From assembly GCF_056712565.1 (NCBI RefSeq), contig NZ_CM160072.1: a stretch of 64,000 nucleotides of DNA; one strand, written 5' to 3'. The stretch's first letter is position 1, and every line of letters begins with the position of its first letter. The position numbers were made by a program. Shown in pieces: positions 50,701 to 53,700 of the stretch.

Positions 50701-53700
50701 ATGAGCTCCGCAGAGCTGACCGAAAAACTGGTTGCGGCAATCAAGAGCGGCAAATACGACACCATTATCTGTAACTATCCGAACGGCGACATGGTAGGTC
50801 ACACCGGGGTGATGGAAGCGGCGGTTAAAGCGGTTGAAGCGCTGGATCACTGCGTGGAAGAAGTCGCGAAAGCGGTTGAGTCCGTGGGTGGACAACTGCT
50901 GATCACCGCTGACCACGGTAACGCTGAACAGATGCGCGATCCGGCAACGGGTCAGGCACACACAGCACACACCAACCTGCCAGTTCCGCTGATTTACGTT
51001 GGTGATAAGAACGTGAAAGCGGTTGAAGGCGGCAAACTTTCTGACATCGCGCCGACCATGTTGTCGCTGATGGGTATGGAAATCCCGCAAGAGATGACTG
51101 GTAAGCCGCTGTTCATCGTGGAATAATCCCTCCCCATGAGGGGAAAGGCGATTAATACCATGACACGGGCCGTGAAACCGCGCAGGTTTGCAATCAGGCC
51201 CATCATCTACGCCAGCGTTCTGAGCGCTGGCGTATTGTTGTGCGCCTTTTCCGCCCACGCGGATGAGCGTGACCAACTCAAATCCATTCAGGCTGACATC
51301 GCCGCGAAAGAGCGCGCGGTACGCCAAAAGCAACAACAACGCGCAAGCCTGCTCGCACAATTGAAAAAGCAGGAAGAAGCGATCTCTGAAGCCACCCGTA
51401 AACTGCGCGAAACGCAAAACACGCTTAATCAACTGAATAAACAGATTGATGAGATGAACGCGTCGATTGCCAAACTAGAGCAGCAAAAAGCCGCCCAGGA
51501 GCGCAGCCTCGCCGCGCAACTGGATGCCGCGTTTCGTCAGGGTGAACATACCGGTATTCAGCTGATTCTCAGCGGTGAAGAAAGCCAGCGTGGGCAGCGG
51601 TTACAGGCTTATTTCAGCTATCTCAACCAGGCGCGACAAGAAACCATTGCTCAGTTGAAACAAACGCGTGAAGAAGTCGCTATGCAGCGTGCCGAACTGG
51701 AAGAGAAACAGAGCGAGCAACAAACGCTTTTATATGAGCAGCGCGCCCAACAGGCGAAGCTGACCCAGGCGTTGAGCGAGCGTAAGAAAACACTGGCAGG
51801 GCTGGAGTCTTCCATCCAGCAAGGTCAGCAACAGTTGAGCGAGCTGCGCGCCAACGAATCCCGTCTGCGTAACAGCATTGCCCGTGCGGAAGCCGCGGCG
51901 AAAGCGCGTGCTGAACGTGAAGCGCGCGAAGCCCAGGCGGTTCGCGACCGCCAGAAAGAAGCGACGCGCAAAGGCACCACCTACAAGCCGACCGAAAGCG
52001 AAAAATCGCTGATGTCCCGTACCGGTGGTCTGGGCGCACCGCGCGGTCAGGCATTCTGGCCAGTTCGCGGGCCGACGCTGCATCGCTATGGCGAACAGCT
52101 ACAGGGTGAATTACGCTGGAAAGGGATGGTGATTGGTGCCTCTGAAGGTACTGAAGTTAAAGCGATTGCCGACGGCCGGGTGATTCTGGCTGACTGGCTG
52201 CAAGGCTACGGTCTGGTGGTGGTGGTTGAGCATGGTAAAGGCGACATGAGTCTTTACGGCTATAATCAGAGCGCACTGGTGAGCGTTGGTTCGCAGGTTC
52301 GCGCGGGCCAGCCAATTGCACTGGTGGGCAGCAGTGGCGGTCAGGGTCGGCCTTCACTCTATTTCGAAATTCGCCGCCAGGGTCAGGCGGTCAATCCACA
52401 GCCGTGGTTGGGAAGATAAGTTTTGTTTCCATTTCGTCGTAACGTTCTTGCATTTGCCGCTCTGTTGGCGCTCTCCTCCCCCGTAATTGCTGGCAAACTT
52501 GCCATCGTCATTGATGATTTTGGGTATCGCCCGCACAACGAAAACCAGGTGCTGGCGATGCCTTCCGCTATCTCCGTCGCTGTATTACCCGATTCACCGC
52601 ACGCCAGAGAGATGGCGACCAAAGCACATAACAGCGGTCACGAAGTGTTGATTCATCTACCGATGGCACCACTGAGTAAACAGCCGCTGGAGAAAAATAC
52701 GCTACGCCCGGAGATGAGCAGCGACGAAATTGAGCGCATTATTCGTAGTGCGGTCAATAACGTGCCCTATGCCGTGGGGATCAACAACCACATGGGCAGC
52801 AAGATGACCTCTAACCTGTTTGGTATGCAGAAAGTGATGCAGGCGCTGGAGCGTTACAATCTTTACTTCCTCGACAGCGTAACCATCGGTAATACCCAGG
52901 CGATGCGCGCCGCGCAAGGCACTGGCGTGAAGGTGATCAAACGGAAGGTGTTCCTCGACGATTCGCAAAATGAAGCGGACATCCGTATGCAATTTAATCG
53001 CGCAATTGACCTGGCACGTCGCAACGGTTCAACCATTGCCATTGGACATCCTCACCCTTCAACGGTACGCGTGCTACAACAGATGGTTTATAACCTGCCG
53101 CCAGACATTACGCTGGTGAAAGCCAGCAGCTTGTTGAATGAACCGCAGGTTGATACGTCTACACCGCCGAAAAACACTGTGCCCGACACACCGCGTAATC
53201 CATTCCGTGGCGTGAAGCTGTGCAAACCGAAGAAGCCGATAGAACCTGTTTATGCTAATCGCTTCTTTGAAGTATTAAGCGAAAGCATCAGCCAGAGCAC
53301 GCTGATCGTTTACTTCCAGCATCAGTGGCAAGGCTGGGGCAAACAGCCCGAATCGGCAAAACTTAACGCTAGCGCAAATTAAAGGCGCTACGCGTAATGC
53401 GATGGTGCGACCGCGTTTTGTCGCGCCATTGCCATAAGCGGAAAGACCACAGTAACGCCTGGTAACCCACCTTCACGCTGCGCACATTGGTAATCAGGCG
53501 CTTATACATACCGGAAGTAAATATCTCAGCAATCATCCGTTGGCGGGTAATAATATCCGGCTCTTTGCGCACCGCATGGCAAACACGCAATGCTTCGTAA
53601 GTTATTTGCTGATGAAATTCCGGATAAATCGTAATTTTGTCGGCATAATTTCGATTTAATTTCTCCAGCAGGCGGGTAATCTTAATATAGTGACGTTGAT

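What the first reader, a model, noticed from the sequence alone, without database searches (positions are those of the whole stretch)
53369..53382. Convergent 3'-end overlap of yibQ and waaH
The two ORFs on opposite strands share 14 bp at their 3' ends with no terminator between them, which implies overlapping transcripts and possible antisense interference.
Basis: seen in the sequence. Interest (0 to 1): 0.15.

Follow-up and report, generated by a model that had tools for sequence, protein, structure and literature searches.

The report
Routine 14-bp tail-to-tail gene overlap
Two well-known E. coli genes on opposite strands (yibQ/sddA and waaH) share their last 14 bases; the overlap is real and long annotated, is one of about 58 such pairs in E. 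coli, and nothing suggests it does anything special.

Summary
yibQ (52423..53382, +) ends with TAA at 53380-53382, and waaH (53369..54403, -) ends with TAG at 53371-53369. The two reading frames therefore share 53369..53382. RefSeq annotates the same 14-bp overlap in Nissle 1917 and K-12 MG1655, and the junction is present in 5377 of 5426 complete E. coli genomes.

Among 80 Enterobacteriaceae species loci, 32 have waaH next to yibQ. In all 32 the junction is short: 12 species in seven genera overlap by 14 bp, and the others range from a 4-bp overlap to a 113-bp gap.

The overlap comes from YibQ's variable C-terminal tail, which runs into the length-conserved end of waaH. The yibQ stop codon is the antisense of conserved WaaH [L/F/I]-N codons.

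The scan found no intrinsic terminator at the junction, and published K-12 data place a Rho-dependent termination region about 324 nt past the yibQ stop, antisense to waaH. So yibQ transcripts do overlap waaH. No data show antisense interference: a roughly 4-fold change in waaH RNA leaves envC unchanged, and yibQ is not among the significantly changed genes.

Verdict: already known, ordinary, low interest.

The parts
52423..53382 (+). yibQ (renamed sddA), a periplasmic peptidoglycan deacetylase of 319 aa. It has a TTG start 3 nt after the envC stop and a TAA stop at 53380-53382.
   Evidence: ORF list. RefSeq annotation. Pfam PF04748 on residues 28-238. SddA preprint 10.1101/2025.02.18.638797: same operon as envC, C-terminal region predicted disordered.
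53369..54403 (-). waaH (formerly yibD), UDP-glucuronate:LPS(HepIII) glycosyltransferase of 344 aa. Its TAG stop is the reverse complement of 53369-53371.
   Evidence: ORF list. RefSeq annotation. Pfam PF00535 on residues 9-137.
53369..53382 (.). The 14-bp shared 3' end, CTAGCGCAAATTAA, in phase (123:132). yibQ reads S-A-N-stop (the 3' end of its Ala codon GCT also lies in the overlap); waaH reads (F)-N-L-R-stop.
   Evidence: Read directly from the sequence. The same 14-bp overlap occurs in 12 other species loci.
53140..53379 (+). The part of yibQ that encodes the C-terminal extension after the deacetylase domain (residues 240-319). It includes the invariant [Q/K]WQGW motif, followed by a variable tail of 14 aa here and 1-14 aa elsewhere. 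This tail creates the overlap.
   Evidence: The Pfam domain ends at residue 238. Tail table. Disordered C-terminus in the AlphaFold model reported by the SddA preprint.
53366..53395 (.). Imperfect palindrome that spans both stop codons: a 10-bp stem with one bulge. Predicted folding energy is -14.4 kcal/mol as + strand RNA and -13.3 as - strand RNA. On the - strand it is followed by UAAGUUUUG in this strain but by UAAACUUCG in K-12.
   Evidence: Folds. Only weak support for conservation.
53399..53432 (.). 13-bp-stem hairpin inside the waaH 3' coding region. Predicted energy is -23.0 kcal/mol on the + strand RNA (the yibQ 3' UTR) and -16.8 on the - strand. No U tract follows on either strand.
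   Evidence: Folds. The 3' arm encodes the conserved WaaH motif WRDK. Pair counts give little covariation.
53383..53706 (+). Inferred untranslated 3' extension of the envC-yibQ transcript, antisense to waaH. It ends in a Rho-dependent termination region whose reported position in K-12 is 3789384, equal to window 53706. Resolution is coarse because the score uses 800-nt windows. A modest C>G stretch lies at 53420-53540.
   Evidence: Adams et al. 2021, supplementary file 2. Coordinate transfer; there are no indels because both waaH genes encode 344 aa. C/G ratios.

Best explanation
This is an ordinary convergent gene overlap created by movement of a stop codon, with no dedicated function.

YibQ/SddA consists of a deacetylase domain (residues 28-238) followed by a C-terminal extension that is predicted to be disordered. 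After the invariant [Q/K]WQGW motif, the extension ends in a tail that varies in length and sequence. In the Escherichia/Citrobacter/Salmonella-type junction this tail stays open for 12-14 codons. It stops at the first in-frame stop, which lies inside the last four codons of waaH.

That stop (TAA or TGA) is the antisense reading of the conserved WaaH C-terminal [L/F/I]-N codons (NTT or NTC followed by AAT). This pins the overlap at 14 bp for as long as no earlier stop arises in the tail.

Transcription of envC-yibQ continues past the stop into antisense waaH. The RNA there is untranslated, so Rho can load and terminate transcription within a few hundred nucleotides. How waaH transcripts end is not known.

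Shown: the overlap, its annotation, its distribution across species, the tail variability, and the Rho-dependent region in published K-12 data. Inferred: origin by stop-codon loss or extension, neutrality, and the absence of a regulatory role.
For: - Overlap and annotation. The junction is present in 5377 of 5426 complete E. coli genomes, and a divergent allele keeps the 14-bp overlap.
- Species comparison. Of 32 loci with waaH next to yibQ, 12 overlap by 14 bp, 5 overlap by 4 bp (CTAG or TTAG), 10 abut with no gap, and 5 have gaps of 6-113 bp.
- The WaaH C-terminus (WRDK, then a fixed distance to the stop) has the same length in the closer WaaH orthologues whether or not it is overlapped. The YibQ tail after [Q/K]WQGW varies from 1 to 14 aa. 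So the YibQ end is the one that moved.
- Where waaH has decayed, yibQ keeps the same stop (L005; O111:H2 strain 12A).
- Literature: E. coli has 58 convergent overlaps, only 20% of the genes involved have a predicted intrinsic terminator, and (123:132) is the commonest phase for convergent overlaps of 5 nt or more (PMC2174442). Convergent overlaps arise by stop-codon movement and look like a neutral by-product (PMC4161906).
- Rho termination region at K-12 3789384 (+), antisense to waaH. Read counts upstream/downstream are 106/28 without bicyclomycin and 187/274 with it; Rho score 5.55.
- No Term-seq 3' end was called between 3786938 and 3790287. No Rfam family matches.
Against: - The 14-bp state persists across seven genera even though the YibQ tail sequence has diverged almost completely, and the length changes seen keep the reading frame. 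This could hint at selection to keep the tail open. However, a random 10-14-codon stretch has no stop with probability about 0.5-0.6 (my own calculation, (61/64)^n), and the group was defined by its outcome, so neutral persistence is not excluded.
- Two stable hairpins sit at and next to the overlap. One base pair in the first hairpin switches G-C to A-U between Escherichia and the other genera. A structural role is therefore not ruled out.
- The Rho data come from K-12 grown in LB, where waaH is poorly expressed, and have a resolution of several hundred nucleotides.
Confidence: 0.85

Rival explanations
1. Antisense interference. Convergent transcription of envC-yibQ and of waaH, which is induced by phosphate starvation, gives complementary 3' RNA ends or colliding polymerases. 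These lower expression of one or both genes, for example through RNase III cleavage of the duplex, as reported for mscL and arfA.
For: The + strand transcript reaches about 0.3 kb into antisense waaH. Under low phosphate both genes are transcribed at appreciable levels: waaH 3,000-13,000 and envC 2,000-3,000 normalised counts. There is a precedent in E. coli, where the mscL 3' UTR overlaps the arfA 3' coding region and is regulated through antisense RNA and RNase III (PMC10070815).
Against: A roughly 4-fold PhoB-dependent change in waaH RNA goes with only log2 -0.4 (q = 0.19) for envC. yibQ is not among the genes with q up to 0.569 in the stored part of Table S1. No paper in the searched library links the two genes functionally. 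Junction spacing varies from a 14-bp overlap to a 113-bp gap among species, and many species lack waaH. A conserved regulatory coupling is therefore unlikely.
Confidence: 0.08
2. Bidirectional terminator of the collision or hairpin type. The palindrome that spans both stop codons (53366-53395), perhaps together with the 13-bp-stem hairpin (53399-53432), forms in both nascent RNAs. It would pause polymerases arriving from either side and define both 3' ends, like the overlapping bidirectional terminators described from SEnd-seq.
For: The hairpins fold on both strands, at -14.4/-13.3 and -23.0/-16.8 kcal/mol. In this strain the - strand copy of the first hairpin is followed by UAAGUUUUG. About 76% of pair cells are maintained across 13 sequences, and one pair switches G-C to A-U. 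The model is described in bioRxiv 10.1101/2022.10.23.513370.
Against: Pairing is barely above the column-shuffle control (76.6% against 74.7%), and the number of covarying pairs is no better than shuffled. The U-rich tail is absent in K-12. Term-seq called no 3' end at these hairpins in three conditions. + strand termination there depends on Rho and lies further downstream. The conserved 3' arm of the second hairpin is explained by the WaaH WRDK codons.
Confidence: 0.06
3. The overlap is selected for itself, either for genome compaction or to protect the YibQ tail or the WaaH end from mutation.
For: The 14-bp state is kept in 12 species across seven genera.
Against: Related junctions with a 4-bp overlap, no gap, or gaps of 6 to 113 bp exist. 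The YibQ tail is not conserved in sequence and is as short as one residue in other species. yibQ keeps its stop when waaH decays. General analyses favour a neutral by-product (PMC4161906).
Confidence: 0.02

Closest known systems
Convergent (tail-to-tail) overlapping gene pairs of prokaryotes, as surveyed by Lillo & Krakauer 2007 (PMC2174442) and Huvet & Stumpf 2014 (PMC4161906)
   Same: A short 3'-3' overlap of two bona fide genes in phase (123:132), produced by the position of a stop codon, with no predicted intrinsic terminator at the junction. It is one of about 58 such pairs in E. coli.
   Different: Nothing essential. At 14 bp it is longer than the very common 4-bp class, and in this case the gene whose end moved can be identified: the YibQ tail.
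Rho-dependent termination of mRNA 3' ends running antisense into a convergent neighbour (Adams et al. 2021, PMC7815308)
   Same: A bicyclomycin-sensitive termination region on the + strand about 324 nt past the yibQ stop, classed 'antisense' to waaH. Many other entries in the same table have the same class.
   Different: None known. The exact rut site and release points were not mapped.
mscL/arfA convergent pair with antisense RNA crosstalk (PMC10070815)
   Same: A tail-to-tail arrangement in E. coli in which one transcript's 3' end is complementary to the other gene's 3' coding region.
   Different: For mscL/arfA, regulation and RNase III processing were shown by experiment. For yibQ/waaH no regulation has been shown, and the available RNA-seq data show no effect.
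Overlapping bidirectional terminators between convergent genes (Ju et al. 2019, as summarised in bioRxiv 10.1101/2022.10.23.513370)
   Same: A hairpin-forming palindrome at the boundary of a convergent pair, without canonical U tracts.
   Different: Those terminators were described as Rho-independent and give sharp 3' ends. Here + strand termination depends on Rho, lies downstream, and no sharp 3' end was detected.

Membership tests
Convergent overlapping gene pair | Two adjacent genes on opposite strands whose coding regions share their 3' ends | tested here: met
   The stop codons at 53380-53382 (+) and 53371-53369 (-) give a 14-bp overlap. RefSeq annotation is identical.
Convergent overlapping gene pair | Both ORFs are real protein-coding genes, not mispredictions | tested here: met
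   Pfam PF04748 (E = 2.7e-76) and PF00535 (E = 3.8e-39). Orthologues in 80 species loci. The YibQ/SddA protein has been characterised biochemically. The WaaH function is taken from its RefSeq product name and cited literature and was not tested here.
Intrinsic (Rho-independent) terminator at the junction | A GC-rich hairpin followed directly by a U tract | tested here: not met
   The scan finds none at 53340-53450 on either strand. The two hairpins lack U tracts on the + strand. The - strand tail UAAGUUUUG in this strain is weak and is not conserved in K-12.
Rho-dependent terminator of the envC-yibQ transcript | Read-through that increases when Rho is inhibited, downstream of an untranslated stretch | tested here: met
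   This rests on published K-12 data, not on the window strain. Rho score 5.55, p = 1.8e-15 at 3789384 (+). The C>G stretch at 53420-53540 is only modest.
cis-antisense regulatory pair (mscL/arfA type) | Expression of one gene changes when the convergent partner's transcription changes | tested here: inconclusive
   RNA-seq Table S1 of PMC10294691: waaH about 4-fold, envC log2 -0.4 (q = 0.19), yibQ absent from the stored rows with q up to 0.569. The yibQ row itself could not be read because the stored file is cut.
Overlapping bidirectional (collision-type) terminator | Sharp, Rho-independent 3' ends of both transcripts at a shared hairpin | tested here: not met
   No Term-seq 3' end was called in K-12 3786938-3790287, and + strand termination is Rho-dependent. 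The - strand was not informative because waaH is poorly expressed in those conditions.
Structured RNA element (Rfam) | A match to a curated covariance model | tested here: not met
   No match with E up to 1 in 52300-54700.

The most novel reading that the evidence does not exclude
The palindrome spanning both stop codons, together with the adjacent 13-bp-stem hairpin, might be a functional bidirectional pause or processing element. It would couple LPS core glucuronylation, induced by phosphate starvation (waaH), to the level of the septal peptidoglycan deacetylase YibQ/SddA. The preprint reports that the SddA dose must be balanced against EnvC.
Probability: 0.04. Interest if true: 0.4.

Novelty: already known. 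Interest (0 to 1): 0.05.

Why it matters
It matters little. The overlap is part of the standard E. coli annotation and belongs to a well-surveyed class. What this check adds is a clean worked example of how such an overlap arises: a variable, predicted-disordered protein tail reads into the conserved end of its neighbour, and its stop codon is fixed by the neighbour's conserved codons. It also brings together published evidence that Rho, not an intrinsic terminator, ends the yibQ transcript inside antisense waaH. If antisense coupling did exist, it would link the phosphate-starvation response in LPS to control of cell separation. Nothing points to that at present.

Tried and rejected
- Looked for an intrinsic terminator at or near the junction. 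The consensus scan gave only a weak 6-bp hairpin at 53287-53306, with hit counts not clearly above shuffles. Rejected.
- Tested the two junction hairpins for conservation and covariation in 13 sequences. Pairing was barely above the shuffle control, and the conserved arm is explained by WaaH WRDK codons. Not accepted as a functional structure.
- Looked for a known RNA family. None found.
- Looked for mapped 3' ends of yibQ or waaH. Adams et al. Term-seq has none. Dar & Sorek 2018 supplements are not held. Ju et al. 2019 is not held. The SMRT-Cappable-seq supplements do not mention these genes.
- Tried to read the yibQ row in the PhoB RNA-seq table. The stored file is cut at q = 0.569, so only a bound is available.
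- Considered that conservation of the 14-bp state shows selection. Rejected as unproven, because an open 10-14-codon frame is expected by chance about half the time and the group is defined by its outcome.
Rejected, because stop codons fix both ends and protein lengths match the RefSeq K-12 entries.

Full report
**1. The observation**

The window around the finding is E. coli chromosome. It is 100% identical over 2.3 kb to Nissle 1917, ATCC 11775 and other strains.

- The ORF list gives yibQ at 52423..53382 on the + strand (319 aa, TTG start 3 nt after the envC stop).
- It gives waaH at 53369..54403 on the - strand (344 aa).
- In the sequence itself, yibQ ends ...AAC GCT AGC GCA AAT TAA, with TAA at 53380-53382.
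- waaH ends ...TTT AAT TTG CGC TAG on the other strand, with TAG as the reverse complement of 53369-53371.

RefSeq annotates the same thing in Nissle 1917 and in K-12 MG1655, where yibQ is 3788101..3789060 and waaH is 3789047..3790081. A 111-nt query across the junction finds it in 5377 of 5426 complete E. coli genomes. A divergent allele (95.5% identity) keeps the 14-bp overlap.

Both ORFs are real genes. YibQ has PF04748 on residues 28-238 and WaaH has PF00535 on residues 9-137. YibQ has recently been characterised as SddA, a septal peptidoglycan deacetylase encoded in one operon with envC, with a C-terminal region predicted to be disordered (bioRxiv 10.1101/2025.02.18.638797).

The ends of ORFs are set by stop codons.

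**2. How unusual it is**

It is not unusual. Lillo & Krakauer (PMC2174442) count 58 convergent overlaps in E. coli and find that only 20% of the genes involved have a predicted intrinsic terminator.

Here yibQ codon positions 1, 2, 3 face waaH positions 1, 3, 2. That is phase (123:132), which accounts for 49% of convergent overlaps of 5 nt or more in their survey.

**3. Where the overlap comes from**

A scan of one genome per species gave 80 Enterobacteriaceae loci with yibQ. I located both stop codons in each and read the junctions. Thirty-two loci have waaH next to yibQ, always convergent and always close together:

| Junction | Number of species | Where |
|---|---|---|
| 14-bp overlap | 12 | Escherichia, several Citrobacter, Salmonella enterica subsp. 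diarizonae, a Leclercia MAG, an Enterobacter, Silvania, Cedecea colo |
| 4-bp overlap (CTAG or TTAG) | 5 | Three Kluyvera species, Pseudescherichia vulneris, an Enterobacteriaceae MAG |
| Stops abut, no gap | 10 | Citrobacter freundii group, Kluyvera |
| 6-113 bp gap | 5 | Kosakonia cowanii, Superficieibacter, Pseudocitrobacter |

Most of the other loci have no waaH next to yibQ; a few carry only a fragment of it or a distant family-2 glycosyltransferase.

The WaaH C-terminus (WRDK, then a fixed number of residues, ending ...A-[L/F/V]-N-L-[R/G/S]) has the same length in the closer WaaH orthologues (at least 73% identical to the query), whether or not it is overlapped. The Citrobacter freundii/Kluyvera group has a different C-terminus. 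YibQ is different: after the invariant motif [Q/K]WQGW it carries a tail of 1 to 14 poorly conserved residues.

So the YibQ end is the one that moved. In the 14-bp group the tail stays open until it meets a TAA or TGA. That stop is the antisense of the conserved WaaH [L/F/I]-N codons (NTT or NTC followed by AAT), and this pins the overlap at 14 bp.

Where waaH has decayed, yibQ keeps the same stop. Examples are an internal deletion in Escherichia sp. MOD1-EC7003 and a pseudogene lacking its C-terminus in E. coli O111:H2 strain 12A.

This matches the general account that convergent overlaps arise by stop-codon movement and behave as a neutral by-product (PMC4161906).

Persistence of the 14-bp state across seven genera is not strong evidence of selection. 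A 10-14-codon stretch is free of stops by chance about half the time (my calculation), and the group is defined by its outcome.

**4. Transcripts and termination**

No intrinsic terminator is found at the junction. Two stable hairpins are present:

- An imperfect palindrome spans both stops at 53366-53395. Predicted energy is -14.4 kcal/mol on + strand RNA and -13.3 on - strand RNA.
- A 13-bp stem lies at 53399-53432, at -23.0 and -16.8 kcal/mol.

Neither is followed by a U tract on the + strand. On the - strand the first hairpin is followed by UAAGUUUUG in this strain but by UAAACUUCG in K-12.

Across 13 aligned junctions, pairing is 76.6% against 74.7% in column shuffles, with one G-C to A-U switch. 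The invariant 3' arm of the second hairpin encodes the WaaH WRDK motif. I do not regard either hairpin as a demonstrated element. No Rfam family matches.

Adams et al. 2021 (PMC7815308, supplementary file 2) list a Rho termination region at K-12 3789384 on the + strand, classed as antisense to waaH.

- Read counts upstream/downstream are 106/28 without bicyclomycin and 187/274 with it.
- The Rho score is 5.55 and p = 1.8e-15.
- The position is 324 nt past the yibQ stop, equal to window 53706. The resolution is coarse because the score uses 800-nt windows.
- Their Term-seq tables call no discrete 3' end between 3786938 and 3790287.

The envC-yibQ transcript therefore does run over the waaH 3' end, and Rho ends it. 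This is the expected fate of untranslated RNA after a stop codon. A modest C>G stretch lies at 53420-53540. The 3' end of the waaH transcript is unknown, because waaH is little expressed in LB.

**5. Interference**

The only relevant data I could find are in the PhoB regulon study (PMC10294691, Table S1), which compares wild type with a phoB deletion in low phosphate.

- waaH is 13,872 and 11,547 in one strain against 3,032 and 2,925 in the other (log2 2.1). I take the higher pair to be wild type from the paper's statement that waaH is positively regulated.
- envC is 2,088 and 2,432 against 2,848 and 3,194 (log2 -0.4, q = 0.19).
- The table is sorted by q and stored only up to q = 0.569. yibQ does not occur in that part, so its change, if any, is not significant.

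No paper in the searched library connects the two genes functionally. Antisense crosstalk at convergent 3' ends does exist in E. coli, for mscL and arfA (PMC10070815), so the idea is reasonable. Here it has no support.

**6. Comparison with what is known, and verdict**

The feature is a member of the class 'convergent overlapping gene pair'. Its + strand termination fits 'Rho-dependent termination antisense to a convergent neighbour'. It does not meet the definitions of an intrinsic terminator or of an overlapping bidirectional terminator (for that model). Membership of the antisense-regulatory class is untested and, on indirect evidence, unlikely.

The overlap is part of the standard K-12 RefSeq annotation. 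Novelty: already known. Interest: very low.

The most novel reading still open is that the junction hairpins form a bidirectional pause or processing element linking waaH induction to the SddA dose. I put that at about 4%.

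Noticed in passing
window ~54364 (K-12 3790042, - strand), 39 nt inside the 5' end of waaH: Adams et al. 2021 list a second Rho termination region here (Rho score 5.77, p = 7e-13). 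This suggests that in phosphate-replete LB, transcription entering waaH is terminated early by Rho. waaH also has lower GC (0.37-0.49) than its flanks (0.52-0.60).
   Followed up: partly
window 54613-54634: A 9-bp-stem hairpin downstream of tdh. The scan reports it on the + strand. On the - strand it coincides with the strong Term-seq 3' end of tdh at K-12 3790287, about window 54609. It lies between tdh and the waaH promoter region.
   Followed up: partly
L005 900-1450; L083 1560-2381; L007; L008 and L009: waaH has decayed or been lost several times. Escherichia sp. MOD1-EC7003 has an internal deletion with tdh now about 0.5 kb from yibQ. E. coli O111:H2 strain 12A has a pseudogene lacking its C-terminus. 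A Citrobacter amalonaticus locus has only a truncated hit. Two Citrobacter loci have no waaH hit yet keep the long 14-bp-type YibQ tail ...INANAN.
   Followed up: partly
window 52419-52423: yibQ starts with TTG 3 nt after the envC stop codon. This is consistent with translational coupling within the envC-yibQ operon. The SddA preprint argues that the operon arrangement balances the doses of the two proteins.
   Followed up: no
window downstream of kbl (compare L001 7574-7788 with L002 6552-7988): K-12 carries htrL between kbl and rfaD. The Nissle-type sequence that matches this window has no annotated gene there.
   Followed up: no
window 51136 versus RefSeq envC start (L001 1861, window ~51160): The mechanical ORF for envC starts 24 nt upstream of the RefSeq start (427 aa against 419 aa). 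This is probably only the longest-ORF convention.
   Followed up: no
window 53287-53306: A weak 6-bp-stem palindrome inside the yibQ 3' region, with T-containing tails on both strands. It lies about 63 nt downstream of the waaH stop on the - strand (about -8 kcal/mol). It could be a weak stop for waaH transcripts, but the scan's hit count is close to that of shuffled sequence.
   Followed up: partly
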